A DNA stretch of 32,694 bases from a virus (Duplodnaviria; Heunggongvirae; Uroviricota; Caudoviricetes), in IMG/VR virus record IMGVR_UViG_3300002756_000060, positions 1-32,694 of that record; one strand, given 5' to 3'. Every line of letters starts with the position of its first letter. Position 1 is the stretch's first letter. Below, in pieces: positions 7,420 through 27,519 of this stretch. The position numbers were made by a program, and so were the translations under genes. The notes beneath the pieces were generated by a model. The model was not told the DNA's origin, ran no database searches, and was given only the letters and a program-made list of their open reading frames with translations.

Positions 7420-7505
7420 CCAACATCGCGGACCCTGATGCTGTCGCCGACCGGTGCGGTCGCGCTCTCGCGTCTGTCCGCGTCTCACCACAGCAGAGAG
7501 ACCCC

Positions 7506-10844: not shown

Positions 10845-10853
10845 CGCGCGGGA

Positions 10854-11309: not shown

Positions 11310-11311
11310 CG

Positions 11312-12058: not shown

Positions 12059-12717
12059 CGATACAAGGAAAGATCGGGCGGCCAGGCGGCCAAAAAACCA
12101 AACGCGCGCTGGGCGTGCAGGCGGCGCTGGAATGGGCCTTTGGCGTGGAAAAGGCACAGCTGGAACTGCCCCTACCGAAGGGCGTGGCCGAGGAAGGCTT
12201 CGGCTTTGGGCTCGAATACGTGCTGCTGCAACGCGCCATACTTGGCTGCAAGATCGACGGCGGCCAACACAAGTTGGGTGGCTATGTGCACGTGGACGCC
12301 GAGGTGATCGCCGCCACCGTCGCGGGCATGCCCGACACCTTGGGTGGTAAGCGCATGGCGATCCGGGTCGCGGAACTGGCACGCGCCGGGCTGACCCCGG
12401 ACTGGATGCCCAGGGCCGTGCCGCGCTGCGTGCCCGTCGATATCAAGCGCAACCGGCATGGTGATCGCGCGGTCAGCGTCGTGGTCGGCACCGCCCGCGC
12501 GCTGATCAGCGGCAAGTGGCGCATCGTCGAGGTCCGCGCCTGCCCCGTCACCTTCACCCCAACCCCACACCAGATCGACGCCGCCCGCCAAGCCTATGAC
12601 GACTGGTGGCAGGCACTGGACTGGGTACGGGATGGGCTTATCGCGGGCGACATGCTGCGGGAGATTGATGTGACAGGGGCGATGCCGAGCGTGCGGCCGT
12701 GGGCTGCAAAGCCTTGA
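12055..12717 (+). CDS. hypothetical protein (220 aa)
   Basis: Translationally coupled to the upstream gene; no recognisable motif. Confidence 0.5.
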   Translation: MTIQGKIGRPGGQKTKRALGVQAALEWAFGVEKAQLELPLPKGVAEEGFGFGLEYVLLQRAILGCKIDGGQHKLGGYVHVDAEVIAATVAGMPDTLGGKRMAIRVAELARAGLTPDWMPRAVPRCVPVDIKRNRHGDRAVSVVVGTARALISGKWRIVEVRACPVTFTPTPHQIDAARQAYDDWWQALDWVRDGLIAGDMLREIDVTGAMPSVRPWAAKP

Positions 12718-12778
12718 TCTTGCGCTCGGCACAAAGAATTCACTCGAAGCGCTGGCATTCAGCAAGTAAGCCTAAGGT

Positions 12779-15652
12779 ATGTTCACCGCTTACCATGGCA
12801 AATATACCGCATATGATCTTACGAAGCTGGCGCCGCCCGGCTCGGACGATCAGTTGTCAATGTCGTTGTTCGATGCATCGGTTGATCTCAATCCTCATCA
12901 GATTGAGGCCGCGATGTTCGCGCTTCAATCGCCGCTGGCTGAAGGCGCGATACTTGCGGATGAGGTCGGCCTCGGCAAAACCATCGAGGCAGGCATTGTC
13001 CTTTGCCAGAAATGGGCTGAGCGAAAACGGAAACTAATCATCATCTGCCCAGCGGCCATTCGACAGCAGTGGGCTGCAGAACTGACGAACAAGTTCAATC
13101 TTCCCGCAGTCGTCATTGACGCTCGGACCTATCGACAGATGAAGATGGAAGGCATTCCATTCCCTTTGTCACAGAAGCGGATCGTCGTGCTATCCTATCA
13201 TTATGCTGCAAAGCTTCAGGATGAGCTTCGGCAAGTCGATTGGGATCTGGTTGTTATCGACGAAGCGCACAAGCTTCGTAACTCGTACCGACCCAGCAAT
13301 CGCATCGGGCAAGCTCTTCAACGAGCAGTCGAAGGCCGCAAAAAGCTCCTGCTGACGGCTACTCCCCTCCAAAACAGCTTGATGGAGATATTCGGGCTTA
13401 CGAACTTCATTGATCCAAACATTTTCGGCGATGCCAACAGCTTCCGGTCGAAGTATGTGAATGCCGGTGGCGATCTGCCCGAGCTTCGCGCAAGGCTCGC
13501 GGATTTCTGCAAGCGCACGCTTCGGAAGCAGGTTCTCGAGTATGTCAAATATACTCAGCGCCGTGCCATCACGCAGCCATTCTCGCCGGCGGAGAACGAG
13601 CAGGCGCTGTATGACGGCATTACGCGCTTCCTACAACGAGAGGACACCTATGCAATACCCTCTCAACAGCGCCATCTAACCGTTCTTATCCTGCGGAAGC
13701 TTCTCGCTTCGTCATCACAGGCCATCGCAGGGACGCTTGAGACCCTACGCGCCCGCTTGGTAGCCCTGCAGAAAGGGGAACCGGTAAAGGATGATCTGGC
13801 GGAGGTGATTTCATTCGAGAACGAGCTCGAAGAAGAAATTCTCGACGAATGGGATGATGACGATGCGCAAGACCCCACAGGGGCCGAGCAAATCGACTTC
13901 GCCAAGCTTCGCCTGGAAATCGACGATATTTCAGGTCTGATCCAGCTTGCACATTCGATCCAGATCGATACTAAGTCCAAAGCGCTGCTACAGGCTCTCG
14001 AGATAGGCTTTTCGGAGCAGGAGCGGATGGGCGCACAGAGAAAAGCCCTGATCTTCACAGAGTCGCGCCGCACCCAAGACTATCTCCGCGATTTCCTCGC
14101 GCGCTACGGTTACGCCAATCAAATTGTGACCTTCAGTGGCACTAATTCCGACCGCAAGGCACAGGAAATTTACGAGCGCTGGCTTACCGATCCGAAGAGC
14201 GCCGAGCAGATTACAGGATCGCGCGCCATCGATGTTCGTGCTGCACTGATAGAAGAATTCCGCGACAATGCCTCGATCATGATCGCAACCGAGGCCGCCG
14301 CCGAGGGTGTCAACCTGCAATTCTGCTCGCAGGTCATCAACTACGACCTTCCGTGGAACCCGCAGAGGATCGAACAGCGCATCGGACGCTGCCATCGCTA
14401 TGGGCAGACGCATGATGTGATCGTCGTGAACTTCCTGAACGAACGCAACGATGCAGATAAACGGGTTCACGCGCTTCTAACCGAGAAGTTCAATCTGTTC
14501 GATGGTGTATTTGGGGCTTCAGACGAGGTCTTGGGAACGATTGAGTCCGGCGTCGACTTCGAAAAGCGCATTCTGGCGATTTACCAGGACTGCCGCACTC
14601 CGGAGGCCATCGCCGCAGCTTTTGATGAACTTCAGACCCAGCTCGAGGAACAAATTCGGAGCCGAATGGAGGATACAAGGCGGGCCCTGCTGGAGAACTT
14701 CGACGAGGATGTCCACGCCCGCCTGAAGCTGCGCCTCGCTGACGCCCGCGAACAGTTGGACCGTGTCGGGCGCCGGTTTTGGGATCTGACCACTGCTATC
14801 CTCGCCGACAAGGCCAAATTCGATGAACCAAATCTGGCCTTCGACCTTCTGGCCCCGCCGACCCGCGACCTGCGACCGGGCCGCTATCACCTGATCTCGC
14901 GGAACTCGGCCGCAGACCCGGCCAAGAACGAACACGGCTATTTCCTCTACCGGCTGTCGCACCCTCTTGGCGAGCATGTCATTGAATCGGCCAAGGCCGC
15001 TGACACGCCAGTGGCCGAATTGCGGTTCGATGTGACCAATCACCCCACACGCGTGGCCATCGTCGAGGCGCTGAAAGGGCGGCGCGGCTGGCTGACGCTG
15101 CGCAAACTTGCGGTGACGACCTTCGAGACCGAGGAATACCTGCTATTCTCGGGCATCGACGACAATGGTCGCTCCATCGACCACGAAGCCTGCGCCAAGC
15201 TGTTCTCGGTCGGTGCTGGCGTTCACCCCATCGACATGCCCGCCCCTGCCATCGCCGACCTCCTTCAGGCTGAGGCCGAGCAGCATGCCAAAGCCACCTT
15301 GAACCGGTCGCTGGATGCCAACAACAAGCACTTTGCCTCGGCCCGTGAAAGGCTGGAGCGCTGGGCTGAGGACAAGGTCTACGCGGCAGAGAAGGCGCTG
15401 AAGGACACCAAGGAACAGATCAAGGGGGTGCGTCGCGAGGCGCGGGCAGCTACCACACTCGAAGAAGAAGCCGCCATCCAAGCCAAACTGCAGGAACTGG
15501 AACGTCGCCAGCGCAAGCAGCGGCAGGAAATCTTCAACCAGGAAGACGAAGTGGCCGACAAGCGGGACGAGTTGATCGCCAACCTTCAAAAGCGGCTCAG
15601 CCGTGGCCACTCGGTTGAATCGCTGTTTACGGTCCGCTGGGCCGTCGTGTAG
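12779..15652 (+). CDS. SNF2-family (SF2) helicase/ATPase
   Basis: Motif I LADEVGLGKTIEAG; motif II LVVIDEAHKLRN; motif III LLLTATPLQNSLMEIFGL; C-terminal helicase motifs ALIFTESRRT, IMIATEAAAEGVNLQ, DLPWNPQRIEQRIGRCHRYGQ; AT-richer codon usage than neighbours. Confidence 0.9.
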   Translation: MFTAYHGKYTAYDLTKLAPPGSDDQLSMSLFDASVDLNPHQIEAAMFALQSPLAEGAILADEVGLGKTIEAGIVLCQKWAERKRKLIIICPAAIRQQWAAELTNKFNLPAVVIDARTYRQMKMEGIPFPLSQKRIVVLSYHYAAKLQDELRQVDWDLVVIDEAHKLRNSYRPSNRIGQALQRAVEGRKKLLLTATPLQNSLMEIFGLTNFIDPNIFGDANSFRSKYVNAGGDLPELRARLADFCKRTLRKQVLEYVKYTQRRAITQPFSPAENEQALYDGITRFLQREDTYAIPSQQRHLTVLILRKLLASSSQAIAGTLETLRARLVALQKGEPVKDDLAEVISFENELEEEILDEWDDDDAQDPTGAEQIDFAKLRLEIDDISGLIQLAHSIQIDTKSKALLQALEIGFSEQERMGAQRKALIFTESRRTQDYLRDFLARYGYANQIVTFSGTNSDRKAQEIYERWLTDPKSAEQITGSRAIDVRAALIEEFRDNASIMIATEAAAEGVNLQFCSQVINYDLPWNPQRIEQRIGRCHRYGQTHDVIVVNFLNERNDADKRVHALLTEKFNLFDGVFGASDEVLGTIESGVDFEKRILAIYQDCRTPEAIAAAFDELQTQLEEQIRSRMEDTRRALLENFDEDVHARLKLRLADAREQLDRVGRRFWDLTTAILADKAKFDEPNLAFDLLAPPTRDLRPGRYHLISRNSAADPAKNEHGYFLYRLSHPLGEHVIESAKAADTPVAELRFDVTNHPTRVAIVEALKGRRGWLTLRKLAVTTFETEEYLLFSGIDDNGRSIDHEACAKLFSVGAGVHPIDMPAPAIADLLQAEAEQHAKATLNRSLDANNKHFASARERLERWAEDKVYAAEKALKDTKEQIKGVRREARAATTLEEEAAIQAKLQELERRQRKQRQEIFNQEDEVADKRDELIANLQKRLSRGHSVESLFTVRWAVV

Positions 15653-15685
15653 ACCAGCCGAGTAACATCAAGGAAAACAAGAACA

Positions 15686-18600
15686 ATGAGCAATTTTGAC
15701 GCCCTCGTTGCCAAGCTGCGCGAAATCTTCCAGATCGACCGGCCTGACCTCGATTTTGGCGTCTACCGTATCCTCAACGCCCGCGCGGGGGAAATCGAGG
15801 ATTACCTGTCCAAGCGTCTGAAGGCGCGGGTGGCCGAAGCACTGGCTGCCGGTGCTGCGGCCAATACCGAAACGCTGAAGGCCGCGATTGAGAAAGCGCG
15901 CGAAGCTGCTGAGGCCGCAGGGTACAATTCAGACGAAGCTCCGAGAGTTCTGAGCCTCCAGAAGGAACTTGCAGCCGCCAGCGGGGCCACGTCGGAGCAT
16001 GAAAATCAGGTCTTCTCGCACCTGTTGACCTTCTTCTCGCGCTACTACGACAAGGGCGATTTCATCAGCCAGCGCCGGTACAAGGGTGATACCTATGCCA
16101 TCCCCTATTCCGGGGAAGAGGTCGTGCTGCACTGGGCGAACCGCGATCAGTATTACATCAAAAGCGGAGAATCCTTCTCGAACTTCAGCTTCAAGCTGGA
16201 TGACGGTCGACTTGTGCATTTCCGCCTTGTCGCTGCCGATACGGCCAAAGACAACCGCAAGGATAACGACAAGGAGCGCCGCTTCGTTCTGGCCACCGAG
16301 CGCACGGTCACGCGCCTTGACGAGGAGGGCGAGGGTTTTGAAGAAACCATCCGTCCGATCGAGGAAGAGGATGGCGCGCTGGTCATCCGGTTCGACTTTG
16401 CAGCACAGCCCAAAGGGACCAAGCAAGAAAAACTGGTTGAGGCGGCGGTGGAAACCATTCTGGACAGCGAGACTTTCAAATCGAGATGGCTGGAACTGAC
16501 CAACCGCGCGCCGACGGAAAAGAAACCGCAGCGCACCTTGCTGGAAAAGCACCTGACGACCTACACGCAAAAGAACACCGCCGATTACTTCATTCACAAG
16601 GATCTGGATGGTTTTCTGCGGCGCGAACTGGATTTCTACATCAAGAACGAGGTGATGAACCTGGACGATGTGCAGGAGGCCGGGGCCTTTGCCGCCATCG
16701 AAAGAAACCTACGGATGATCCAATGCCTGCGGGCCATCGCTCTGGACCTGATTACCTTTCTGGCCAGCATCGAGAATCTCCAGAAAAAGCTATGGCTGAA
16801 AAAGAAATTCGTGGTGGCGGCGCAGTATTGCGTGACGCTGGACCGGGTGCCGGAGGCGCTTTACCCGGCTATCGCGGCGAACCCCGCGCAATGGGCGCAG
16901 TGGCATGATCTGGGGATGCGGGCATCCGCGGCGCCGGGGACGGTGGAGGATCTGAAAGCCGCGCCCTTCCTGATGGTGGACACCGCGCTCTTTGATGCGG
17001 GTTTCCGGGCTGACCTGTTGAAGGCGATCCCCGATCTGGATGCTAGCCTCGACGGGCTGCTGGTTCATGGGGACAATTTTCAGGCGCTGAACCTTTTGCA
17101 GGATCGATACCGGGAAAAGGTCAAATCAATCTATATCGACCCGCCTTACAACACTGACGCAGGACCGATCAGTTACAAGAACGGCTACCGGAGTTCGTCG
17201 TGGGTTGCCATGATGCACGACCGCGTGAAACTCGGGCGTGAGCTATTGCCTCTCGACGGGTTGCTCACCGCCACGATCGATGACTATCAGTACCGTGAAT
17301 TGCACTTCGCCATTGAAGAGGTTTTTGGCGCTCAAAACCTCGCAGGTACCGTTGTAATCCGAATGAACCCGTCTGGCCGCCCGCTCCCACAAGGCTTCGC
17401 ACAGTCCCACGAATACGCAATCGTCGCGAAGCGGTCAGACTTAGCTCAGATCGAGAACTTACCGAGAAGCGAGAAGCAGAACGCCAGATATAAGCACCGC
17501 GATGACGACGGTCAGATGTACATGTGGGAACTGTTCAGAAAGCGCGGATCGAATTCCGAAAGAACTGACCGGCCTTCGCTGTATTATCCGATCTATCTCC
17601 GGGGTGAGGACTTTCGGGTTCCCCGAATGACTTATGATCCTGATCGCAAGGATTGGGATATTCATGAAGAACCGGATACCGACGAAAGCGTCATCTACCC
17701 TATTGACGACAACGGAACCTTGCGCACGTGGCGTGGCTCACCGGATGATTTGATCGATAATCCAAGCAACTATCGTGTGAAGATCGAGGACAGCAAAGTC
17801 ACGGTCTACTACAAGTTTCGCCCCAACTCTGAGGGTGTGCTTCCGCTCACCAACTGGATCGATGCCAAATACTCCGCAACGGAGCATGGAACGGGATATC
17901 TCAAGAACTTCTTTTCGGAATACAACGTTTTCTCCTATCCGAAGTCGATCTACGCGGTTGAAGACTGCATCAGGGTTGGTGGCGCAACGGCCAATGCAAC
18001 CGTCCTCGACTATTTTGCAGGATCGGGCACGACTGGACACGCAGTCATAAACTTGAACCGGTCCGACCAAGGGTCTCGAAAGTACATCTTGGCCGAGCAA
18101 GGCGCTTACTTCGAAACTGTCATTAAGCCACGCTTAAAGAAGGCAGTGTTTTCTGCTGATTGGTCAGAGGGTAAACCCACCGCCCCCGAAACCGGCATCA
18201 GCCATGCCTTCAAGGTACTCAAGATCGAGGGCTATGAGGACACGCTGAACAATCTTGATCTGAAGCGTTCGGAGGCGCAGGCCAGTCTTCTGGAACGGTT
18301 CAGCGCCGACAAGCGCGACGACTATTTGATGCGCTACATGCTGGATGTCGAGGGACGCGGCTCGCTCCTGTCCATCTCGGATTTCCGCAAGCCCTTTGAC
18401 TACTCGCTCAAGGTCGCCGTCGACAGCGCCGGGGCCTGGGAGGAGCGCAAGGTCGATCTGGTCGAGACCTTCAACTACCTGATCGGCCTGACCGTCCGCC
18501 ATATCGACATCCAGCTTCGCCAAGGCTTCGCCACGGTCGAGGGCTGGTTGCCAACGGGTGAGCGGACCCTGATCCTGTGGCGCGACTGCGATAAAATCGG

Positions 18601-18805
18601 CTATGAGGAATTGACGCGCCTGTGCGACAAACTGGCGATTAACCCGGCCGACAGCGAATACGACGTGGTCTACATCAACGGCGACCACAATATCCCCTCG
18701 GTGGTGGAAACGACCGAGGAAGAGGGCAGCGTTATCAAGAAGCTGATGCTGCGCCAGATCGAACCCGCCTTCCTCGATGCGATGTTCAACGTGGATGACG
18801 TCTGA
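15686..18805 (+). CDS. Type III Mod-like beta-class DNA methyltransferase with ~480-aa N-terminal extension
   Basis: LLVHGDNFQALNLLQDRYREKVKSIYIDPPYNT (motif IV) precedes VLDYFAGSGTTGHAV (motif I); AAGGAAA Shine-Dalgarno at 15670-15676; 1039 aa. Confidence 0.85.
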   Translation: MSNFDALVAKLREIFQIDRPDLDFGVYRILNARAGEIEDYLSKRLKARVAEALAAGAAANTETLKAAIEKAREAAEAAGYNSDEAPRVLSLQKELAAASGATSEHENQVFSHLLTFFSRYYDKGDFISQRRYKGDTYAIPYSGEEVVLHWANRDQYYIKSGESFSNFSFKLDDGRLVHFRLVAADTAKDNRKDNDKERRFVLATERTVTRLDEEGEGFEETIRPIEEEDGALVIRFDFAAQPKGTKQEKLVEAAVETILDSETFKSRWLELTNRAPTEKKPQRTLLEKHLTTYTQKNTADYFIHKDLDGFLRRELDFYIKNEVMNLDDVQEAGAFAAIERNLRMIQCLRAIALDLITFLASIENLQKKLWLKKKFVVAAQYCVTLDRVPEALYPAIAANPAQWAQWHDLGMRASAAPGTVEDLKAAPFLMVDTALFDAGFRADLLKAIPDLDASLDGLLVHGDNFQALNLLQDRYREKVKSIYIDPPYNTDAGPISYKNGYRSSSWVAMMHDRVKLGRELLPLDGLLTATIDDYQYRELHFAIEEVFGAQNLAGTVVIRMNPSGRPLPQGFAQSHEYAIVAKRSDLAQIENLPRSEKQNARYKHRDDDGQMYMWELFRKRGSNSERTDRPSLYYPIYLRGEDFRVPRMTYDPDRKDWDIHEEPDTDESVIYPIDDNGTLRTWRGSPDDLIDNPSNYRVKIEDSKVTVYYKFRPNSEGVLPLTNWIDAKYSATEHGTGYLKNFFSEYNVFSYPKSIYAVEDCIRVGGATANATVLDYFAGSGTTGHAVINLNRSDQGSRKYILAEQGAYFETVIKPRLKKAVFSADWSEGKPTAPETGISHAFKVLKIEGYEDTLNNLDLKRSEAQASLLERFSADKRDDYLMRYMLDVEGRGSLLSISDFRKPFDYSLKVAVDSAGAWEERKVDLVETFNYLIGLTVRHIDIQLRQGFATVEGWLPTGERTLILWRDCDKIGYEELTRLCDKLAINPADSEYDVVYINGDHNIPSVVETTEEEGSVIKKLMLRQIEPAFLDAMFNVDDV

Positions 18806-21800
18806 TGGCGCGTGCGGCGAAGAAAAAGCGCACCTTCCATCACGAGTTGGTGCTGAACCGCTGGATGCTGAGCCATTTTTACGGTGACGGCCTGATGACG
18901 CTCAAATCGCGGTTGGGCGATGACCGGTTTGAGGGTATCGACGACGATGGCCAGACCAAGTTCTTTCATGAGCTGACGCGCAACCTGTTCAACATGGACC
19001 GCGTCACCGAGGCCGAGCTGCGCCGCTATGACCTGAACATCGTCGCATATTGGCAGAAGATCACCCATCGCCGCAACGCCGCCACGGGCGAATTGCTGAC
19101 GATGAAATATTTTCAGTATCTGTCGCTGCTGTTCACCGAGATCTACCTCGACTGGTATTTCAACCGGCGACAGGACTTGCTGGACGGGCTGAATGCCCAA
19201 ATGGCCGCGTATCGGAAAGAGGACGGGGCCGAACCGTTTCGCGATTATAGCGCCGACGACCTCAACAAGCTCGCCTTCTGGAACGCGACAGGCAGCGGCA
19301 AGACCCTGCTGCTGCATGTGAACATCCTGCAGTACCTGCATTACTTCCAGGCGGGCAACGGCAACCTATTTCCCGACCGGATCATCCTGCTGACCCCAAA
19401 CGAGGGACTGTCACGCCAGCATCTGGAGGAATTCCGCGAGTCCGGCATCAACGCCCATGTCTTCGACAAGAACCAGACAGGTTCGCTGTTCAAGGGCTGG
19501 GTGGATGTGATCGAAGTCACGAAGCTGGCCGACGAGATGGGCGACAAGACCGTCGCCACCGGCGCGTTCGAGGGCAACAACCTGGTGCTGGTCGACGAAG
19601 GCCACCGCGGCACCGGCAGTGCGGGCGGGGTCTGGATGGCGAGGCGCGCGGCGCTGGTGAAGGGCGGCTTTGCTTTTGAATACAGCGCGACCTTCAGCCA
19701 ATCAGTCGCCAAGGGCGCCACGGTTGCAAAGGCCGAGGAAGACATCCTGAAGGCCAAGGCGAAGCGCCTGTTCGACAAGACTTTGAAACAGCTGGACGAC
19801 ACGGAACGCGCACAACTGCAGCTGACCAACGAAGATCGCGCCCGCGCCCGCATCGACGGCATTCGCGAGGCCTACGCCAAGGCGGTGCTGATCGACTACA
19901 GCTACAAGTATTTCTACGCCGACGGTTACGGGAAGGAATCCCTGATCCTGAACCTGGACGACAAGGGCTATGACAACCATGGCGATCTGTATTTCACAGC
20001 GTGCTTGCTCAGCTTCTACCAGCAGCTCTGGCTCTGGGACACGCACCGCGACAAGATCAGGGACTTCAATATCGAGAAGCCGTTGTGGGTCTTCGTGGGC
20101 AACACTGTGGCCGGAGAGGACAGCGATATCCTCGAAGTCATCAAGTTCCTCGCCTGGTTTCTGAACCATCCCAGCGAAGCCACGACATGGATCGCAGACC
20201 TCGTTGCCGACAAGGCGCGGCTGCTGGACCCGAAGGGTAACGACGTATTCGCGGGGCGCTTCTCCCCCTTGATGCAGCGTGATGCCGCGACGATCTATGA
20301 CGATATCCTGAAGCGGCTGTTTAACGCCGATGCGAGGCAGCGGCTGAAGTTGGTGAACCTGAAGAACAGCAAGGGTGAGCTGGCCCTGCGGGTCGGATCG
20401 TTCGATCCCTTTGGCCTGATCAACATCGGCGACGATTCCGGCTTCTTCAAGAACGCCGAGGACAGCAGCGACTTCGATACCGAAGCGGACGATTTCGGGA
20501 CCGGGCTGTTTGGCACGATCAACCAGAAAGATAGCAAGCTGAATGTCCTGATCGGGTCGCGGAAATTCACCGAAGGCTGGTCAAGCTGGCGGGTGTCGAC
20601 CATGGGTCTACTCAACATGGGGCAAGGCGAAGGCTCACAGATCATTCAGCTTTTCGGTCGCGGCGTCCGCCTGAAAGGACGCGGCATGTCGCTGAAACGG
20701 TCACTCCCCGCCGAGCGGCCGAAGGGCACGCACATGGAACGCCTTGAAACGCTGAACATCTTCGGCGTCCGGGCGAACTACATGGCCACCTTCAAGGACT
20801 ACCTGAAGGAGGAAGGCATCACGCCGAGCGACGAAATCATTCAGCTCGACTTCCCGACCAGGACGAACCTGCCGTCCGGGACTAGGCTCAAGACGCTCAA
20901 GCTGAAAGATGGCTATAAGGATAATCAGATCAAGGGCTTCAAGCGCGTCCACTATCCGACGTTATACGAGGTCCCGGCCGAGTTCGCGGGCAAGATCAAG
21001 CCTCCACACGTCCTGCTCGACCTTTATCCGCGAGTCGAAGCGATCACGACCACGGCGAACGCAACGGCGGGCGCACCGGACAAGCGAAATCGTGGCAAAC
21101 TGAGCAAGGCGGCAATCGCCTGCTTTGATTGGGATGCGGTATTCACCGCCGTTCAGGAATACAAGCTCCTGAAAAGCTGGAGCAACCTGAAGGTCGACCG
21201 AGAGCGCCTATACCAGTTCTGTCTTGGCGACAACAGCTGGTACACCCTTTTGATCCCCCAAGCGGAACTGGAAGTGTCGGACTTTTCAGATGTGCTGCGT
21301 CAGCAGGACATCATGCTTCAGCTGCTTACCGACTATACCGACCGTTTCTATCAAGGGCTGAAGGCGGCTTATGAGGGCAAATTCTACGATGTCGCGCCGG
21401 TTACGGAGGACTCCGGCTCGATCATCAAACTGTACCAGTTTGAGATCGAAAACACCGATGTCGGTCTTGAGTACAAGGCAAAGCTTGAGGTCCTTTCCGC
21501 CCTCGTCGCGTCTGGAAAAATCGGCGAGGCCAGCAATTGGAACGCACCCCATATGGTGGCGATCAGCTTCGGACAGCACCTGTATTATCCCCTGCTCTCT
21601 CCGATCAAAGATGCGGTCGTCCCACTAAAGATGCGACCACTGGCAATTGGAGAACCAAGCGAGGTGCAGTTCGTTGAGGACGTCATGGCCTACTACGACT
21701 CGCCTTCAGGGAAAGAGAGGCTGAAAGGCTTCAGCCTTTACCTGCTGCGCAATGCCGACAATCGCGCCAAGGGGCTCGGTTTCGCTCTGGCAGGCAACTT

Positions 21801-22122
21801 CTATCCTGACTTCCTGCTCTGGCTGGTGGACGACAAAACTGGCAAGCAGTGGCTATCATTCATCGATCCTAAGGGCATTCGAAACCTGAACATTTCGGAC
21901 CCGAAGTTTGGCTTGTATAGGGAAATCAAGCAGATCGAGAACCAGCTGGGTGACGGCATGATCAGCCTAAACGCCTTCATCCTGTCCGTGACGACCTTCA
22001 GCGACCTGCTAAATGTCACAGGCTCTACCACGAAATCGGAGCTCGAGGACCGAAATGTCCTATTCATGGGCGACGGGGGGCCGACATATCTTGATAAGCT
22101 GCTGGCCAGAGCCCTCACCTGA
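18805..22122 (+). CDS. Res-like ATPase/helicase with candidate C-terminal PD-(D/E)xK nuclease
   Basis: Walker A FWNATGSGKTLLLHV; Walker B-type LVLVDEGHRG; C-terminal YPDFLLWL...FIDPKG; start overlaps the Mod-like stop (TGATG), so co-operonic; 1105 aa. Confidence 0.75.
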   Translation: MARAAKKKRTFHHELVLNRWMLSHFYGDGLMTLKSRLGDDRFEGIDDDGQTKFFHELTRNLFNMDRVTEAELRRYDLNIVAYWQKITHRRNAATGELLTMKYFQYLSLLFTEIYLDWYFNRRQDLLDGLNAQMAAYRKEDGAEPFRDYSADDLNKLAFWNATGSGKTLLLHVNILQYLHYFQAGNGNLFPDRIILLTPNEGLSRQHLEEFRESGINAHVFDKNQTGSLFKGWVDVIEVTKLADEMGDKTVATGAFEGNNLVLVDEGHRGTGSAGGVWMARRAALVKGGFAFEYSATFSQSVAKGATVAKAEEDILKAKAKRLFDKTLKQLDDTERAQLQLTNEDRARARIDGIREAYAKAVLIDYSYKYFYADGYGKESLILNLDDKGYDNHGDLYFTACLLSFYQQLWLWDTHRDKIRDFNIEKPLWVFVGNTVAGEDSDILEVIKFLAWFLNHPSEATTWIADLVADKARLLDPKGNDVFAGRFSPLMQRDAATIYDDILKRLFNADARQRLKLVNLKNSKGELALRVGSFDPFGLINIGDDSGFFKNAEDSSDFDTEADDFGTGLFGTINQKDSKLNVLIGSRKFTEGWSSWRVSTMGLLNMGQGEGSQIIQLFGRGVRLKGRGMSLKRSLPAERPKGTHMERLETLNIFGVRANYMATFKDYLKEEGITPSDEIIQLDFPTRTNLPSGTRLKTLKLKDGYKDNQIKGFKRVHYPTLYEVPAEFAGKIKPPHVLLDLYPRVEAITTTANATAGAPDKRNRGKLSKAAIACFDWDAVFTAVQEYKLLKSWSNLKVDRERLYQFCLGDNSWYTLLIPQAELEVSDFSDVLRQQDIMLQLLTDYTDRFYQGLKAAYEGKFYDVAPVTEDSGSIIKLYQFEIENTDVGLEYKAKLEVLSALVASGKIGEASNWNAPHMVAISFGQHLYYPLLSPIKDAVVPLKMRPLAIGEPSEVQFVEDVMAYYDSPSGKERLKGFSLYLLRNADNRAKGLGFALAGNFYPDFLLWLVDDKTGKQWLSFIDPKGIRNLNISDPKFGLYREIKQIENQLGDGMISLNAFILSVTTFSDLLNVTGSTTKSELEDRNVLFMGDGGPTYLDKLLARALT

Positions 22123-22124
22123 GC

Positions 22125-22150
22125 CGGGGCAAGTTGAGCTCCCCCCCGGC
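22125..22150 (+). terminator. Weak GC hairpin immediately after the Res-like gene stop
   Basis: GCCGGGG (22125-22131) pairs with CCCCGGC about 13 nt downstream; no clear U-tract. Confidence 0.2.
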
Positions 22151-22225
22151 ATGGTTCCTCCCGGGCGCGATCCGTATACGGGGGGGCTGAGCGCGGCATT
22201 TCGCTAGCGACTGGCTTTTTCACCG

Positions 22226-22427
22226 GGGAATCCACTTGGAAGCCACCCCGGCGGCCCTGCCGGAAATTGTGACTCAATTTCAGAACCTTACCCGACAGCA
22301 TCGGTGGCCAGGGTGGATTCCTTTTGGAAGCCAGGGAATCCACTTGGTGGGTTCTTTTGGCCAGAAAAGCCACCCTCAGGCCAGATCGGCAGAACACCTT
22401 GATTCCAAGCCACAAAATGGATTGACA
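22226..22427. repeat. Array of GGAA(T/G)CCA motifs in both orientations (paralog of 7137-7325)
   Basis: gggaatccacttggaagccacc occurs twice; ggtggccagggtggattcc (inverted); gattccaagccac. Confidence 0.6.
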
Positions 22428-22510
22428 TTTCTAGCCCCCTTGACGTACCCCTTGATTGTCGAAGAGTTGCGCCCGGAGGAAACCCCTCGCGGGCGCTTTT
22501 GCTTTCCCCC
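22422..22510 (+). promoter_or_regulatory. Promoter-like TTGACA/TTGACG/TTGATT elements followed by a GC stem (GCGCCCG 22469-22475 / CGGGCGC 22490-22496) and T-rich tract
   Basis: Same arrangement as 7336-7419; the conserved leader CATCGCGGACCCTGA follows in both copies. Confidence 0.4.
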
Positions 22511-22592
22511 ATCGCGGACCCTGACACAGCAACCGGCGTTTGCCGGGGCTTGCATTGGTCTGTCCGCCCTGCCCCGGATCCGAACCCCACCC

Positions 22593-23855
22593 ATGGACCT
22601 TGTCTTTGCGCCGAGCCAGATCGAGAGCTGGCCGATCGACCGGCTGCGCCCCTATGCCCGCAATGCCAAGATCCACGGCACGGACCAAGTCGCCAAGATC
22701 GCGGCAAGCATGGCCAAGTTCGGCTGGACCGTGCCTTGCTTGGTGGCTGACGATGGCGATCTGATTGCGGGCCACGGTCGGGTGCTGGCCGCCATCATGC
22801 TGGGGCTGACCGAGGTGCCGGTGATCCGGCTCGGCCACCTGGATGAAGCGGAGCGCCGGGCGTACCGGATCGCGGACAACAAATTGACCGAGTTGGGCGA
22901 ATGGGACGAGGCAATGCTGCGCGACGAGATCGCGGGGCTGCTGGCCGAGGATTTCGACCTTACGCTGCTGGGCATCAGCGAGGATGATCTCGATGCGCTG
23001 TTGCGGGATCCCGATGCGCTGGGCGGCGATGGCCCCGTCGAGGGCGAGGACGACGTTCCGGAGTTACCGGTCACCCCGGTCTCGGTGGCGGGTGACCTTT
23101 GGCAGCTTGGATCGCACCGGCTGATCTGCGGCGACAGCACCTCCGCCGATGTCGTCGGGCGGCTGCTCGGCGACGTGAAGCCGTTGCTGATGGTGACGGA
23201 CCCGCCTTACGGCGTGGAGTATGACCCAAGCTGGCGCAACCAGGCGGGCGCGGCCAAAACCAAACGAACCGGCAAGGTGCTGAACGACGACCGGGCCGAC
23301 TGGCGCGAGGCATGGGCGCTGTTCCCCGGCGATGTCGCCTATGTCTGGCACGGCGCGCTGCATGCAGCGACGGTTGCTGAAAGCCTCTTGGTTGCAGGTT
23401 TTGCCATTCGCTCGCAGATTATCTGGGCCAAGGACCGGCTGGTCCTCAGCCGCGGCGATTACCACTGGCAGCATGAGCCCTGCTGGTATGCGGTGCGCGT
23501 CAAGGGCAAGGGGCACTGGGCGGGCGACCGCAAGCAGACCACATTGTGGCAGATCGCCAACCGCGATCAAGATGCCGACACAGTGCACGGCACGCAAAAG
23601 CCGGTCGAATGCATGCGCCGTCCGATCCTGAACAATTCCAGCCCCGGGCAGGCGGTGTTTGAACCCTTTATGGGGTCTGGCACCACGCTGATCGCGGCTG
23701 AAACCACGGGACGCGTCTGCTTTGGGATCGAGTTGAACCCGGCCTACGTTGATGTGGCCATCGAGCGCTGGCAGCAATTCACCGGCGCCAATGCCGTGCT
23801 GGCGGAAACGGGCGAGACCTTCGCCGAGTTGAAGGCCAAAAGGCTGGCCGCATGA
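22593..23855 (+). CDS. ParB-like nuclease domain fused to DNA methyltransferase (DPPY type), paralog of 7506-8768
   Basis: MDLVFAPSQIESWPIDRLRPYARNAK...; LMVTDPPYG; FEPFMGSGTTLIAAE; 8 differences from the first copy in the first 62 residues. Confidence 0.85.
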   Translation: MDLVFAPSQIESWPIDRLRPYARNAKIHGTDQVAKIAASMAKFGWTVPCLVADDGDLIAGHGRVLAAIMLGLTEVPVIRLGHLDEAERRAYRIADNKLTELGEWDEAMLRDEIAGLLAEDFDLTLLGISEDDLDALLRDPDALGGDGPVEGEDDVPELPVTPVSVAGDLWQLGSHRLICGDSTSADVVGRLLGDVKPLLMVTDPPYGVEYDPSWRNQAGAAKTKRTGKVLNDDRADWREAWALFPGDVAYVWHGALHAATVAESLLVAGFAIRSQIIWAKDRLVLSRGDYHWQHEPCWYAVRVKGKGHWAGDRKQTTLWQIANRDQDADTVHGTQKPVECMRRPILNNSSPGQAVFEPFMGSGTTLIAAETTGRVCFGIELNPAYVDVAIERWQQFTGANAVLAETGETFAELKAKRLAA

Positions 23856-25219
23856 ACGCGCCCCTCCTGCCGGGCCGGATCGAACATTGGCCGCTGGCCC
23901 GGCTGAAGCCCTATGCCCGCAACGCCAAGACCCATGACGCCGATCAGGTTGTGAAGATCGCTGCCAGCATGGCCGAGTTTGGCTGGACCGTCCCCTGCCT
24001 CGTCGCCGCCGATGGTGAGTTGATCGCAGGCCATGGCCGCATCCTGGCGGCGGCCCAGCTGGGGCTGTCCGAGGCCCCGGTCATCGTGCTGGACCATCTG
24101 ACCGAGGCGCAACGCCGGGCCTATCGCATCGCCGACAACAAGCTCACCGAGCTGGGCGGCTGGGACGAGGCCCTGCTCCTCGAGGAGCTGCGCGGGCTGT
24201 TGGCCGAGGATTTCGACCTCGGGCTGATCGGGATCCCCGAGGATGAGCTGGACGCGCTGCTGCACGCGGGCGACGAAGAGCGCCCATCGATTTCTGACGA
24301 TGCGGCTGATGCCATCCCCGCCCCGCCTGCCGAACCCATCACTAAGGCGGGCGACATCTGGGCGCTGGGCAAGCACCGGCTATGCTGCGGCGACGCGACC
24401 GATCCGGCCGCTGTCGCCAGGTTGATGCAGGGTGCAGAAGCCGCGCTGATGTTCACCTCGCCACCCTATGCCCAGCAGCGCGACTATGGCGCGGCCAGGG
24501 AAAAACTCGGCGATTGGGATGCGCTGATGCAGGGCGTGTTCACTGCAGCGCCGGTCACCACCGACGCACAGCTGCTGGTCAACCTCGGCCTCGTGCACCG
24601 GGACAGCGAATGGCAACCCTATTGGGAAGGATGGGTCGAATGGATGCGCAAATCTGGCTGGCGACGCTTTGGCTGGTATGTGTGGGATCAGGGCCCGGGC
24701 TTGCCGGGCGACTGGAACGGCCGCCTGGCCCCGTCGCACGAGTTCATTTTCCACTTCAACCGCGCGCCCCGCAAACCGCACAAGACGGTCCAGTCAAAGC
24801 ACGCGGGCGAAACTTTGGGCGGCGGCGGGCTGCGCGGGGCCGACGGCACCGTGCATGCCAAAACCGGCACAGGCAACGCGATCCAGAGCCACCGCATCCC
24901 GGACTCTGTCTTCCGCATCATGCGCCACAAGGGCGGGCTGGGTGCGGCCGGATCGCATCCGGCGGTGTTCCCCGTGGCGCTGGTCGAGGCCGTGCTGACC
25001 GCATTCTCGGATCCGGGCGACCTGATCTACGAGCCGTTCTGCGGCTCCGGCACCCAGATCGTCGCCGCCGAACGCGCTGAGCGGCGCTGCTTCGCGATGG
25101 AACTGGATCCCGTCTATTGCGACGTCGCCGTGCGGCGATGGGAACTGGCGACGGGGCGAAAGGCACAGTTGGAAAATCGCAACGAAACCACCATTGGCAA
25201 GGAGACAAAACAGCAATGA
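23852..25219 (+). CDS. ParB-like nuclease domain fused to DNA methyltransferase (SPPY type), paralog of 8765-10132
   Basis: KPYARNAKTHDADQVVKIAASMAEFGW; LMFTSPPYAQQRDYG; YEPFCGSGTQIVAAE; ATGA overlap with the upstream gene. Confidence 0.85.
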   Translation: MNAPLLPGRIEHWPLARLKPYARNAKTHDADQVVKIAASMAEFGWTVPCLVAADGELIAGHGRILAAAQLGLSEAPVIVLDHLTEAQRRAYRIADNKLTELGGWDEALLLEELRGLLAEDFDLGLIGIPEDELDALLHAGDEERPSISDDAADAIPAPPAEPITKAGDIWALGKHRLCCGDATDPAAVARLMQGAEAALMFTSPPYAQQRDYGAAREKLGDWDALMQGVFTAAPVTTDAQLLVNLGLVHRDSEWQPYWEGWVEWMRKSGWRRFGWYVWDQGPGLPGDWNGRLAPSHEFIFHFNRAPRKPHKTVQSKHAGETLGGGGLRGADGTVHAKTGTGNAIQSHRIPDSVFRIMRHKGGLGAAGSHPAVFPVALVEAVLTAFSDPGDLIYEPFCGSGTQIVAAERAERRCFAMELDPVYCDVAVRRWELATGRKAQLENRNETTIGKETKQQ

Positions 25220-25725
25220 TCATCAACACCCCAATCTGGCGAAACGCTGACCTCATTCGGATCATTCCGATCACGCGCGCGGACCTGAACCAGGCCATAT
25301 CCCGCAACGACTTTCAGCCTGAAAACACACCCAAGCCCGGAAAGGCGCGCTGGTACAGCTGGAGAGACGTAGTGTCGGTTGCTGCCGCACAGGACTTGCG
25401 CAAACTCGGCTTTGGTCCGTCGATCGCATTTGGGCTGGTGCAAAACCACCTGTCACCGTTTCTGCGGGCTAGCATAGACGCCCCGGACGATTGCGCAGGA
25501 GTGCTTTGGCTTATCCGTCCAAGTGACGACCATCTCAACATTGAGACCCCGTGCGAGTTCCTGCGGCACACCGAATACGAGGAACTCCTTGTTACGCCAG
25601 ACGAGAGCGCTTGCATCATCGTGAATATCGGTCGCATTGCAGCCCGCGTTAGCAATGACCTGCAGGCGACCGAGACTGCCAAGATCATCCGTGAGGAATT
25701 TCAGATCACAGGACCGGTGATGTGA
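25216..25725 (+). CDS. hypothetical protein (169 aa), paralog of 10129-10638
   Basis: Near-identical sequence (MIINTPIWRNADLIRIIPITRADLNQAISRNDF...). Confidence 0.6.
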   Translation: MIINTPIWRNADLIRIIPITRADLNQAISRNDFQPENTPKPGKARWYSWRDVVSVAAAQDLRKLGFGPSIAFGLVQNHLSPFLRASIDAPDDCAGVLWLIRPSDDHLNIETPCEFLRHTEYEELLVTPDESACIIVNIGRIAARVSNDLQATETAKIIREEFQITGPVM

Positions 25726-25937
25726 CCCAATCGCGCGGCATGTCGCTGATCGAAGCCGTCACCAACGTGGCGGTGGGCTATGTGCTCGCTGTCGCCACGC
25801 AGATCTTGGTGTTTCCATGGTTCGGCCTGCACCCGAGCCTTGGCGAGAACCTAGCGCTGGGCGGGGTCTTCATCGGCATATCGCTCCTGCGCAGCTACGC
25901 GCTGCGCAGGCTGTTCGAGCGCTGGACGCACTTGTGA
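25722..25937 (+). CDS. small hydrophobic (probable membrane) protein, paralog of 10635-10844
   Basis: MTQSRGMSLIEAVTNVAVGYVLAVATQILVFPWFGLHPSLGENLALGGVFIGISLL. Confidence 0.5.
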   Translation: MTQSRGMSLIEAVTNVAVGYVLAVATQILVFPWFGLHPSLGENLALGGVFIGISLLRSYALRRLFERWTHL

Positions 25938-25989
25938 TGCCAGTTCCTGATAAAAAATGCAGCTGAGAGAAGCGCCGAATTTTTGGCGC

Positions 25990-26010
25990 ATTCCTGCGAT
26001 ACCAGGAATG
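25990..26010. promoter_or_regulatory. Perfect 8-bp inverted repeat CATTCCTG-cgata-CAGGAATG just upstream of the NYN gene (candidate operator)
   Basis: Palindrome read directly at 25990-25997 and 26003-26010; it lies 16-25 nt upstream of the candidate starts. Confidence 0.35.
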
Positions 26011-26025
26011 GAAATCCAGTAGACG

Positions 26026-26712
26026 GTGAGCGATATGACCCAGCCAGTGGCAGTGCTTGTGGATGGCGACAATATCAGCGGCAAGAACGCCGCATCCATC
26101 CTTGGGATCGCCATGAAGCACGGCGATCCCGTTGTGGTGCGGGCCTATCTGGACGCTCAGCGGGCATCCGACTGGCACGGTGCCATCGGGTATCGGCTGG
26201 TCCATGCCGGGTCAGGCAAGAACGCATCGGATATCCTGCTGGCCATTGATGCAATGGACCTTGTTCACGCCAAGACGACCACGAAATTCATCATTGCCAC
26301 CTCTGACGGTGATTTCACTCATCTCGCAGTCCGCCTGCGCGAACTTGGTGCAAAGGTCATAGGCGTCGGAGAAGCGAAAGCACCACATATGTTCAGGGCA
26401 AGTTGCTCCAGCTTTGTGGAACTGGGCACGAAACCGACAGTGAAACTGGTGCCCAAGGCGCCGACAGGCGTCGCGGATATGGACTTGAAAATCCGAGCGA
26501 TGATTGCCGAACACAGCAAGAAGGGGGCCGGCATGCGCATCGTCGAGCTCGCCCCGAAAATGCATGTGGTGCATGGGATCAAGATCAGTACACTGCCGGA
26601 AAAGAACTGGCGAAGCTATCTGACCGCGCGCCCAGCTTTGTTCGATGTTGAGCCGCGCGGCCCCGAAGCAATGGTCAGGTTTCGACCAGAGGGGTTTGCG
26701 ACGGCGGCCTGA
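26026..26712 (+). CDS. NYN (PIN-like) domain protein with possible C-terminal OST-HTH/LOTUS-like domain
   Basis: N-terminus VAVLVDGDNISGKNAASILGIA...FIIATSDGDFTHLAVRLRELGAKVIGVG fits the NYN pattern; start GTG 26026 or ATG 26035. Confidence 0.65.
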   Translation: MSDMTQPVAVLVDGDNISGKNAASILGIAMKHGDPVVVRAYLDAQRASDWHGAIGYRLVHAGSGKNASDILLAIDAMDLVHAKTTTKFIIATSDGDFTHLAVRLRELGAKVIGVGEAKAPHMFRASCSSFVELGTKPTVKLVPKAPTGVADMDLKIRAMIAEHSKKGAGMRIVELAPKMHVVHGIKISTLPEKNWRSYLTARPALFDVEPRGPEAMVRFRPEGFATAA

Positions 26713-26937
26713 CAGGGAAGCTGTGATCGGACCCGTCTCAACCGTCCAGAAGATTGAGTGCCGTGATATAGGGATCGGCGATGTTCCATGACCCTTCTTC
26801 AAGGGTTCAGATCGCATCGCTGTTGGCGGACAAGGCCGCGAAGGCTGCGGATACCGCCGCCTCCGCATTCGACGCCTGAACCGTGACGCTTGTGCTTTCC
26901 GTCACATCGCGGGTGAGCAGGACCGCGAAGCAGGGCA

Positions 26938-27519
26938 TCAGGCGGCCTCGAGTTTGTACACGGTGCCTCTGCCCGCGACCTTCTCCGAGGTAACCGGCAG
27001 GTTCAGCTTCTTCTTGAGGCCGCCCGAAATCAGGCCTCTCGCCGAATGCGCCAACCATCCCGTCGCTTCGACGATCTCGGCGATGGATGCACCCTCGGGT
27101 CGCTGAATGAGTGCGATGATCTCCGCCTGTTTGGTGCCGGTGCGGATGGCAACCGGCTTCGGCGTGGAAGGGTTCGGGGAAGCTTCGGACGCATCCTTGG
27201 GCCCAGTGACCAGCTCCAGCTTTGCCTTGCGCGCGCTGGCGACGGCGCTGGCCACCACCGGCTCGATCCCGATGGCTTGCAGCCCGGCCTCAGTCGCGAT
27301 CAGCGTGGTGCCGTGGCCGTCGCCGGTTTCGCGCCACATGGGCTCGCCTCGGCGCAGGTTGGCCTCGACCTCTTCAAGCCAGCCGCGCGTGATCATCGCG
27401 GTCACCGCCTTCTGGGCGGCGGCGCCATGCAGGCCCTCGGGCAGTGGCATAGCGAGGTTGCCGGGGCGCGTTGCCGCGCGGCTGAGGACGATGGTTTGGG
27501 TGTCGGTGAGTTTGGGCAT
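26938..27519 (-). CDS. DUF3489-like protein (full-length copy, 193 aa)
   Basis: Paralog of 10854-11309 with ~42 extra N-terminal residues. Confidence 0.6.
   Translation of the reverse strand: MPKLTDTQTIVLSRAATRPGNLAMPLPEGLHGAAAQKAVTAMITRGWLEEVEANLRRGEPMWRETGDGHGTTLIATEAGLQAIGIEPVVASAVASARKAKLELVTGPKDASEASPNPSTPKPVAIRTGTKQAEIIALIQRPEGASIAEIVEATGWLAHSARGLISGGLKKKLNLPVTSEKVAGRGTVYKLEAA

What the first reader, a model, noticed from the sequence alone, without database searches (positions are those of the whole stretch)
18805..22122. Res-like protein with non-canonical DEGH Walker B and a long N-terminal region
The Walker A motif lies about 160 residues from the N-terminus and the Walker B reads DEGH rather than DEAH. 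The putative nuclease motif (YPDFLLWL...FIDPKG) is at the extreme C-terminus. This divergence from typical Res proteins suggests a distinct family.
Basis: partly seen in the sequence, partly recalled or inferred. Interest (0 to 1): 0.4.

Follow-up and report, generated by a model that had tools for sequence, protein, structure and literature searches.

The report
Type III-like restriction subunit with SNF2 partner
The gene encodes the ATPase-nuclease subunit of a widespread, databased but experimentally unstudied Type III-like restriction-modification system that nearly always travels with a third gene, an SNF2 DNA motor, here carried on a prophage-like contig.

Summary
ORF 18805-22122 (+) encodes 1105 aa with GSGKT at 163-167, DEGH at 264-267 and YPDF...IDPKG at 1000-1024.

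These features are not oddities. DEGH is the consensus of a large family (G in 126 of 136 representatives), and the archetypal Res, EcoP1I, itself reads DEPH. A C-terminal PD-(D/E)xK nuclease is the normal Type III Res layout, and the motifs are collinear with EcoP1I.

The protein is nevertheless not detectably homologous to EcoP1I-type Res beyond the helicase motifs. Profile-profile probability is 3.8%, and there is no PF19778, NCBIfam or PDB sequence match. "Distinct family" is therefore right. But the family is already catalogued: PADLOC REase_III PDLC03654 covers residues 5-1100 at 1538 bits, and NCBI names some members Type III R subunits.

The gene is translationally coupled to a 1039-aa Type III-type Mod whose recognition domain is swapped between close relatives. 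An intact SNF2 ATPase precedes Mod. A full-length SNF2 homologue is adjacent in 46 of 55 genome loci across many phyla.

The best reading is a three-gene, Type III-like restriction system. The SNF2 role is unknown, and I found no paper describing the trio. Interest is moderate.

The parts
12779..15652 (+). SNF2-family ATPase, 957 aa, first gene of the trio (GLGKT 64-68, DEAH 161-164)
   Evidence: Pfam SNF2-rel_dom 4.5e-38 and Helicase_C 6.9e-20. PADLOC DrmD PDLC02619 2e-203, covering residues 29-660 only. NCBIfam DISARM_DrmD_b 683 bits, below its cut-off of 950. A full-length homologue is adjacent to Mod-Res in 46 of 55 genome loci with enough flank. ATPase motifs are invariant in 79 co-located homologues.
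15686..18805 (+). Mod subunit, 1039 aa: beta-class N6A/N4C DNA methyltransferase core (about aa 450-840) with a 450-aa N-terminal and a 230-aa C-terminal extension
   Evidence: Pfam N6_N4_Mtase 5e-19 at 479-809. PADLOC MTase_III PDLC03646 full length at 1128 bits, plus further MTase_III profiles over the core. Motif IV DPPY at 485-488 lies upstream of motif I FAGSG at 777-781.
17183..17935 (+). Mod target-recognition region (about aa 500-750), hypervariable between close relatives
   Evidence: Identity to the three closest relatives (L006, L007, L009) is 8-38% in this stretch, while the flanking parts of the same proteins are mostly 74-100%. The blastn alignment to Tabrizicola breaks at 17214-18006.
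18805..22122 (+). Res-like subunit, 1105 aa (the finding). Its ATG overlaps the Mod stop codon (TGATG).
   Evidence: PADLOC REase_III PDLC03654 covers residues 5-1100 at 1537.7 bits. Pfam ResIII 5e-08 and DEAD 2.4e-06 match only residues 151-301.
18805..19254 (+). Res N-terminal domain of about 150 aa, helical, conserved across the family (KYFQY..LFTEIYLD), function unknown
   Evidence: Conserved from Proteobacteria to Bacillota, Bacteroidota and haloarchaea. AF2 pLDDT is 82-96 over most of it and the region is all-helical. No Pfam hit even at E<=10.
19285..19305 (+). Res Walker A / motif I (ATGSGKT, aa 161-167)
   Evidence: A, T, G165, K and T are invariant in 136 sequences.
19594..19605 (+). 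Res Walker B / motif II (DEGH, aa 264-267)
   Evidence: D, E and H are invariant; G in 126 of 136 and A in 7.
20647..20670 (+). Res motif VI (QLFGRGVR, aa 615-622)
   Evidence: Q615, F617, G618, R619 and R622 are invariant. This aligns with QEVGRGLR of EcoP1I Res.
21637..21999 (+). Res C-terminal PD-(D/E)xK nuclease domain (about aa 945-1065). Candidate catalytic residues: E953, D1002, D1021, K1023.

Best explanation
The ORF is the restriction (ATPase plus nuclease) subunit of a three-gene, Type III-like restriction-modification defence system, in the order SNF2 - Mod - Res. The system is carried as cargo on a prophage-like element.

Proposed mechanism:
1. Mod recognises a short DNA sequence through its variable recognition domain and methylates host DNA (N6-adenine or N4-cytosine). 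This is inferred from motif order and recognition-domain swapping.
2. Mod and Res form a complex. This is inferred from the overlapping stop and start codons and from strict co-occurrence.
3. On unmethylated invader DNA, the Res SF2 ATPase (Walker A, DEGH, SAT, motif VI, all intact) hydrolyses ATP to drive or license long-range communication along DNA. The C-terminal PD-(D/E)xK domain then cuts. This is inferred by analogy with EcoP15I-type enzymes, whose motif layout is collinear.
4. The SNF2 ATPase is a functional third component. It is most likely a dsDNA translocase or remodeller that helps the complex reach or communicate between sites, or clears bound proteins. The genomic association is shown; the role is a guess.

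DEGH is simply this family's version of the DExH motif II.
For: - Mod: DPPY then FxGxG order, with full-length or core hits to many PADLOC MTase_III profiles. The recognition region is 8-38% identical between relatives whose flanks are mostly 74-100% identical.
- Coupling: the Mod TGA overlaps the Res ATG. A large Mod plus Res pair is conserved on plasmids of Proteobacteria, Bacteroidota, Bacillota and haloarchaea.
- SNF2: a full-length homologue is adjacent in 46 of 55 genome loci, 41 upstream and 5 downstream. Its motifs are invariant in 79 homologues.
- Defence context: other defence genes are nested between Mod and Res elsewhere, namely AAA_21+DUF4276, GmrSD and RhuM. The system occurs on plasmids, predicted viral contigs and this prophage-like window next to HsdR.
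- Type III mechanism used for the analogy: PMC4490356 and PMC3413136 (abstracts).
Against: - No member of this family has been tested, as far as the held literature shows.
- There is no detectable homology to characterised Res beyond generic helicase motifs, so the mechanistic analogy rests on architecture alone.
- K1023 is H in 31 of 136 representatives.
- The AF2 model is poor for the RecA2 core (pLDDT 30-45 at residues 587-690) and pTM is only 0.47.
- Deeper branches of the Res family (35% identity or less) lack the SNF2, or have SF1 helicases next to them instead. The SNF2 is therefore not universal to the family.
- No physical interaction has been shown.
Confidence: 0.7

Rival explanations
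1. It is an ordinary two-gene Type III restriction-modification system (Mod + Res). The SNF2 gene is an independent neighbour, for example a stand-alone DrmD-like defence gene that happens to share defence islands with it.
For: PADLOC labels Mod and Res as MTase_III and REase_III, and labels the SNF2 separately as DrmD-like. Nine of 55 loci lack a close SNF2 homologue within the flanks examined, and one of these (L024) has a partial hit at the locus edge. More distant Res clades lack it. Res already has its own ATPase, so a second motor is not obviously needed.
Against: The SNF2 is adjacent and on the same strand in 46 of 55 loci, from Proteobacteria to Planctomycetota, Acidobacteriota, Nitrospirota, Spirochaetota and Verrucomicrobiota. 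It is found in two gene orders. In distant phyla it is more conserved (55-60%) than Res (40-42%). Hitchhiker genes at these loci are variable, whereas the SNF2 is constant.
Confidence: 0.2
2. It is a DISARM- or BREX-like DNA-modification defence system. Methylation marks self, but the invader is blocked by the helicases (SNF2 plus the Res-like ATPase) without classical site-dependent cleavage.
For: The SNF2 is closest to DISARM DrmD_b (683 bits) and also hits BrxHII and DpdE profiles. In class 1 DISARM, deleting drmD together with drmMI almost abolishes protection against one phage (bioRxiv 10.1101/2021.12.28.474362).
Against: No DrmA, DrmB (DUF1998), DrmC, PglZ, BrxC or DUF499 gene is present among the neighbours scanned. 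Mod is Type III-type and hits no DrmMI or PglX profile. The SNF2 is below both DrmD cut-offs. The nuclease residues are under strong conservation.
Confidence: 0.07
3. It is not a defence system. It would instead be a mobile-element-encoded epigenetic, repair or replication module: a methylase plus two helicases acting on the element's own DNA.
For: It sits among phage methyltransferases and ParB-methylases next to the terminase genes. On Klebsiella IncF plasmids it lies close upstream of traM.
Against: Recognition-domain swapping between close relatives, nested defence genes, a conserved nuclease, and wide chromosomal, plasmid and prophage distribution are hallmarks of restriction-modification systems.
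Confidence: 0.03

Closest known systems
Type III restriction-modification enzymes of the EcoP1I/EcoP15I type (Mod2Res1-2)
   Different: No sequence or profile homology in Res outside motifs II-III and VI. No PF19778 endonuclease-domain match. There is an extra conserved N-terminal region, with Walker A 76 residues further in. Mod is 1039 aa with long N- and C-terminal extensions; archetypal Mods are about 650 aa (my own knowledge). A conserved SNF2 partner is present, which classical Type III systems lack. [quoted passage not shown]
DISARM class 1 (DrmD SNF2 helicase + DrmMI + DrmA/B/C)
   Same: An SNF2 ATPase most similar to DrmD_b sits directly upstream of an N6-type methyltransferase.
   Different: No DrmA, DrmB or DrmC. 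The SNF2 matches only the N-terminal two-thirds of DrmD_b and is below the cut-off. The methyltransferase is Type III Mod-like, not DrmMI.
SNF2-containing modification-based systems: BREX type 3 (BrxHII), DUF499-centred BR systems, ARMADA II
   Same: They combine a Swi2/Snf2 motor with an N6-methyltransferase and, in BR systems, a PD-(D/E)xK nuclease (PMC12839542; PMC12458937).
   Different: Those systems need BrxC/DUF499 ATPases, PglZ or YprA helicases, and PglX/BrxX-type methyltransferases. None of these is present here.
CglI/NgoAVII-type restriction enzymes with a separate helicase-like H subunit
   Same: They are a precedent for a restriction system in which a separately encoded SF2 motor subunit translocates dsDNA to activate a nuclease subunit (PMC5861437, abstract).

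Membership tests
Type III restriction-modification (Res subunit) | res lies immediately downstream of a mod gene in one operon | tested here: met
   The Mod stop codon overlaps the Res ATG at 18803-18807. Mod-Res adjacency is seen in all loci with flank.
Type III restriction-modification (Res subunit) | The partner Mod is a beta-class N6-adenine methyltransferase (motif IV DPPY, recognition domain, motif I FxGxG) related to known Type III Mods | tested here: met
   DPPY at 485, FAGSG at 777. PADLOC MTase_III profiles hit the core, for example PDLC03638 at 5.9e-70.
Type III restriction-modification (Res subunit) | SF2 helicase-like ATPase motifs in the N-terminal part and a PD-(D/E)xK endonuclease domain at the C-terminus | tested here: met
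   Motif positions are collinear with EcoP1I Res. Pfam ResIII scores 33.5 bits, above its 22.5 cut-off. The C-terminal fold matches restriction endonucleases.
Type III restriction-modification (Res subunit) | Sequence homology to characterised Res proteins (EcoP1I/EcoP15I family; Pfam PF19778 RE_endonuc) | tested here: not met
   BLASTP gives no significant alignment. hhalign gives 3.2% and 3.8% probability. No PF19778 hit at E<=10. No PDB sequence hit.
Type III restriction-modification (Res subunit) | Match to a curated or derived Type III REase profile over the full length | tested here: met
   PADLOC REase_III PDLC03654, residues 5-1100, 1537.7 bits. This is a subfamily profile that EcoP1I Res does not hit.
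Type III restriction-modification (Res subunit) | ATP-dependent cleavage that needs two inversely oriented unmethylated asymmetric sites, cutting about 25 bp from a site, with hemimethylation of one strand | not testable with these tools
   Needs biochemistry and methylome sequencing.
DISARM | Core genes drmA (helicase), drmB (DUF1998) and drmC (PLD) | tested here: not met
   Pfam and PADLOC scans of the trio and its neighbours show none. Res hits only REase_III in PADLOC.
DISARM | The SNF2 helicase passes the DrmD equivalog cut-off | tested here: not met
   NF038318 scores 683 bits against a cut-off of 950. NF038317 scores 281 against 610.
BREX type 3 / BR systems / ARMADA | BrxC/DUF499 AAA+ ATPase, PglZ, or YprA-like helicase together with a PglX/BrxX-type methyltransferase | tested here: not met
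   No such domains in the window ORFs scanned. System definitions from PMC12839542 and PMC12458937.

The most novel reading that the evidence does not exclude
The SNF2-Mod-Res trio would be a mechanistically distinct, widespread class of ATP-dependent restriction system. In it a Swi2/Snf2 dsDNA translocase is an obligatory third subunit of a Type III-like enzyme. It might convert the passive one-dimensional sliding of classical Type III enzymes into active translocation, or strip proteins from invader DNA. The Res subunit would be an independent, convergent fusion of an SF2 ATPase and a PD-(D/E)xK nuclease rather than a diverged EcoP1I-type Res.
Probability: 0.4. Interest if true: 0.65.

Novelty: new variant of a known kind. 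Interest (0 to 1): 0.4.

Why it matters
Type III restriction is understood from a handful of EcoP1I/EcoP15I-like enzymes.

This family is large. At least 590 of the 185,579 species-representative genomes scanned carry it, and there are 805 clusters at 50% identity with E<=1e-30. It spans many bacterial phyla and archaea. It sits on clinically relevant Klebsiella and E. coli IncF plasmids and on prophages.

It has no solved structure and, in the held literature, no experimental study. About 85% of the protein has no Pfam match, and none of it matches NCBIfam.

If the SNF2 motor really is a subunit, the system would show a new way of coupling two different SF2 motors to one nuclease. It could also shed light on what the related DrmD and BrxHII helicases do in DISARM and BREX.

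Practically, annotation pipelines call the Res 'DEAD/DEAH box helicase family protein'. The system is therefore easily missed as a barrier to plasmid and phage transfer.

Tried and rejected
- NCBIfam scan of Res and Mod: no hits.
- PDB sequence search with the single protein and with a 49-sequence profile: nothing significant.
- Foldseek of the full-length AF2 model against PDB: only weak generic SF2 hits, best E 2.3e-4, and EcoP15I not listed.
- Promoter and terminator consensus scan of 11000-23000: counts at or below shuffle expectation, uninformative.
- tRNA scan: none, so no att-site clue.
- Literature searches for the trio, including the accession numbers of the Klebsiella plasmid proteins: no description. 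One paper merely lists a Type III REase, a Mod and an SNF2 helicase as cargo of a Cronobacter integrative element.
- DISARM, BREX type 3, DUF499 BR systems, ARMADA II and Hma were considered and rejected. Their defining genes are absent and only the SNF2 resembles their helicases.
- The two small ORFs upstream (11312-12058, 12055-12717) were considered as system components and rejected. They are phage families (phrog_27243, phrog_9306) and co-occur only in the closest relative.
Full report
**1. The observation**

ORF 18805-22122 on the + strand starts with ATG and encodes 1105 aa.
- GSGKT at residues 163-167
- DEGH at 264-267
- YPDF at 1000-1003
- IDPKG at 1020-1024

The nuclease motif is in the last tenth of the protein, not at its very end. 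The gene is clearly real. About 8000 homologues were scored in the 90%-identity protein collection. An exhaustive HMMER search of 50%-identity cluster representatives found 2652 relatives at E<=1e-3 and 805 at E<=1e-30.

**2. Are the features unusual?**

I aligned 135 full-length cluster representatives with the query.
- Walker A (A-T-G-S/A-G-K-T) is essentially invariant.
- In DEGH, D, E and H are invariant. The third residue is G in 126 of 136 sequences and A in 7.
- Motif III (EYSAT) and motif VI (QxFGRGxRL) are invariant.
- In the nuclease motif, P1001, D1002 and P1022 are invariant. Position 1021 is D or E. Position 1023 is K (103) or H (31).

DEGH is therefore the family's normal motif II, not a lesion.

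For comparison I fetched the archetypal Res from phage P1. EcoP1I Res (970 aa) has GTGKT at 87, DEPH at 226, GAT at 253, GRGLR at 533, PD at 897-898 and ExK at 916-918. Three things follow:
- The archetype is not DEAH either.
- A C-terminal PD-(D/E)xK motif is the canonical Res layout.
- The two proteins are collinear. The target has Walker A 76 residues further from the N-terminus and a similar PD-to-(D/E)xK spacing (19 versus 18 residues).

The third position of the DExH/D motif is variable among SF2 ATPases (general knowledge). A glycine there does not argue against activity.

**3. Is it a distinct family?**

By sequence, yes.
- Pfam sees only ResIII/DEAD over residues 151-301.
- NCBIfam sees nothing.
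- No PDB chain matches the protein or a 49-sequence family profile.
- BLASTP and profile-sequence hhalign against EcoP1I Res find nothing.
- Profile-profile hhalign between this family (A1) and an EcoP1I-type family alignment (A4) gives 3.8% probability and aligns only motifs II-III.
- EcoP1I Res and all 120 of its listed relatives carry Pfam PF19778 (RE_endonuc). The target's C-terminus does not hit it even at E<=10.

The family is, however, already catalogued. PADLOC's REase_III model PDLC03654 covers residues 5-1100 at 1537.7 bits, and some NCBI records call members 'type III restriction endonuclease subunit R'. That model is subfamily-specific: EcoP1I Res hits PDLC03649 and 03647, not 03654.

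**4. Structure**

An AF2 model from a 100-sequence alignment has mean pLDDT 75.6 and pTM 0.47.
- The N-terminal 150 residues are a confident helical domain.
- The RecA2 core (residues 587-690) is oddly poor, with pLDDT 30-45.

- also Can2, BsaWI and SgrAI

The nuclease assignment is thus supported by fold as well as by motif.

**5. The neighbours**

The upstream gene (15686-18805, 1039 aa) ends in a TGA that overlaps the Res ATG.
- It is a beta-class methyltransferase, with DPPY at 485 ahead of FAGSG at 777.
- It hits a full-length PADLOC MTase_III model, and many other MTase_III models over the core.
- Between relatives whose SNF2 and Res are 81-93% identical, Mod residues about 500-750 are only 8-38% identical, while the flanks are mostly 74-100%.

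This is recognition-domain swapping, the signature of a sequence-specific restriction-modification methylase.

Upstream of Mod is an SNF2 ATPase (12779-15652, 957 aa).
- GLGKT and DEAH are intact.
- It is closest to DISARM DrmD_b but below the cut-off, and it matches only that model's first two-thirds.

**6. Conservation of the trio**

The best is Tabrizicola oligotrophica at 93% identity.

I ran tblastn with the window's three proteins against 85 fetched loci. Of the 55 loci with enough flank, 46 have a full-length SNF2 homologue next to Mod-Res.
- In 41 it is upstream.
- In 5 it is downstream (Pasteurellaceae, Neisseria, Cardiobacterium, and a Moraxellaceae MAG labelled Enhydrobacter).
- The phyla range from Pseudomonadota to Planctomycetota, Acidobacteriota, Nitrospirota, Spirochaetota, Verrucomicrobiota and Ignavibacteriota.

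In distant phyla the SNF2 is more conserved (55-60%) than Res (40-42%). Its ATPase motifs are invariant in 79 co-located homologues.

The same trio sits on Klebsiella and E. coli IncF plasmids, preceded by an HTH gene, and on a Blastomonas plasmid.

More distant Res branches (35-38% identity) keep the large Mod but have other partners or none:
- a UvrD-PD-(D/E)xK fusion in Priestia
- a RecD-like SF1 helicase in Hymenobacter
- nothing recognisable in haloarchaea and several viral contigs

In several loci unrelated defence genes are nested between Mod and Res: AAA_21+DUF4276, GmrSD and RhuM. This also happens in Type I restriction-modification and BREX operons (my own knowledge).

**7. Context in the window**

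The window is 100% identical over the trio to IMG/VR contig UViG_3300002490_000102. The exact protein occurs on 17 metagenome contigs; the three places listed are from subsurface or rock-porewater metagenomes.

The region is prophage-like:
- small and large terminase genes at 29554-32104
- ParB-methyltransferases
- several PHROG families

The trio lies between two diverged copies (75-84% identity) of a methyltransferase / ParB-methyltransferase module. A Type I HsdR, a HARE-HTH protein and a CHAT protein lie further upstream.

**8. Interpretation**

The best-supported reading is a three-gene, Type III-like restriction-modification defence system.

Shown computationally:
- an intact ATPase and nuclease in Res
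- a Type III-type Mod with swapped recognition domains
- translational coupling of Mod and Res
- a strongly co-conserved, intact SNF2
- a mobile-element and defence-island context

Inferred by analogy with EcoP15I (PMC4490356, PMC3413136): Mod-directed site recognition and ATP-triggered long-range communication, followed by cleavage.

The role of the SNF2 is not known. I propose a translocase or remodeller subunit, but this is a guess.

Rivals are listed with the tests that would separate them:
- a plain Type III system with an unrelated SNF2 neighbour
- a DISARM- or BREX-like non-cleaving system
- a non-defence module

**9. Novelty and score**

I found no paper describing this trio in the held library. 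One genome report merely lists such genes together. DISARM, BREX type 3, BR systems, ARMADA and Hma are different systems.

Databases already label the parts as Type III Mod and Res, so the gene in this window is a new member of a catalogued family. The family as a whole is best described as an uncharacterised variant of Type III restriction-modification. It differs from the archetype in three ways:
- a non-homologous Res
- an enlarged Mod
- a conserved SNF2 partner

Interest is moderate at 0.4. The conserved second motor is a real open question and could be tested directly.

Noticed in passing
window 7064-11297 and 22152-27396: A diverged direct duplication (75-84% identity). It consists of a module holding a DNA methyltransferase, a ParB-methyltransferase and a phrog_10315 ORF. 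The SNF2-Mod-Res trio and two phage ORFs lie between the two copies.
   Followed up: partly
window 829-6840: More defence-type cargo lies upstream: a full Type I HsdR (829-3960), a HARE-HTH protein (4221-5219) and a CHAT-domain protein (5092-6840). The last two ORFs overlap by about 130 nt. No hsdM or hsdS was seen among the ORFs scanned.
   Followed up: no
window 26026-26712: A NYN-domain (predicted RNase) ORF is present inside the second copy of the duplicated module. The spacing between repeat families grows from about 15087 to about 16090 nt, which indicates roughly 1 kb extra in copy 2.
   Followed up: no
window 29554-32104; whole window: Small (phrog_57) and large (gpA) terminase genes show the window is prophage or phage DNA. 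The trio region is 100% identical to IMG/VR UViG_3300002490_000102. The exact Res protein is on 17 metagenome contigs; the three places listed are subsurface or rock-porewater samples.
   Followed up: partly
window 19714-19860 (Res aa about 304-352): A helical insertion of about 50 residues after motif III is present in the window, Klebsiella and Blastomonas proteins. It is absent from the Hymenobacter, Priestia and haloarchaeal proteins. It explains why phmmer splits most distant hits into two stretches.
   Followed up: partly
window 20563-20874 (Res aa 587-690): AlphaFold2 gives very low confidence (pLDDT 30-45) to the RecA2 core. This is the most sequence-conserved part of the protein (motifs IV-VI). 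Unexplained.
   Followed up: no
L012 8213-9996; L079 8130-9926; L033 8874-9989: In other genomes unrelated defence genes are nested between Mod and Res: AAA_21 ATPase + DUF4276, a GmrSD Type IV nuclease, and a RhuM-family protein.
   Followed up: yes
L004 3108-6014; L003 193-3825: In distant branches the gene ahead of Mod is not SNF2 but an SF1 helicase. In a Priestia plasmid it is a UvrD-helicase/PD-(D/E)xK fusion. In a Hymenobacter plasmid it is a RecD-like 1210-aa ATPase.
   Followed up: partly
L001 (Klebsiella pneumoniae plasmid p19-10_01) 3590-13342: On IncF plasmids the trio is preceded by a small HTH gene that overlaps the SNF2 start. It lies a few kb upstream of DUF932, an SLT transglycosylase and traM, near the transfer region. 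Only 2 of 5426 complete E. coli genomes carry the whole trio. About 150 others keep a 300-bp remnant annotated DUF1158.
   Followed up: partly
H26, Thermus phage phiLo MH673673.1 18006-20477: This is the only deposited phage genome with a relative (38% identity over residues 1-857). It is annotated as a putative type III restriction endonuclease subunit R, and the match lacks the nuclease end.
   Followed up: no
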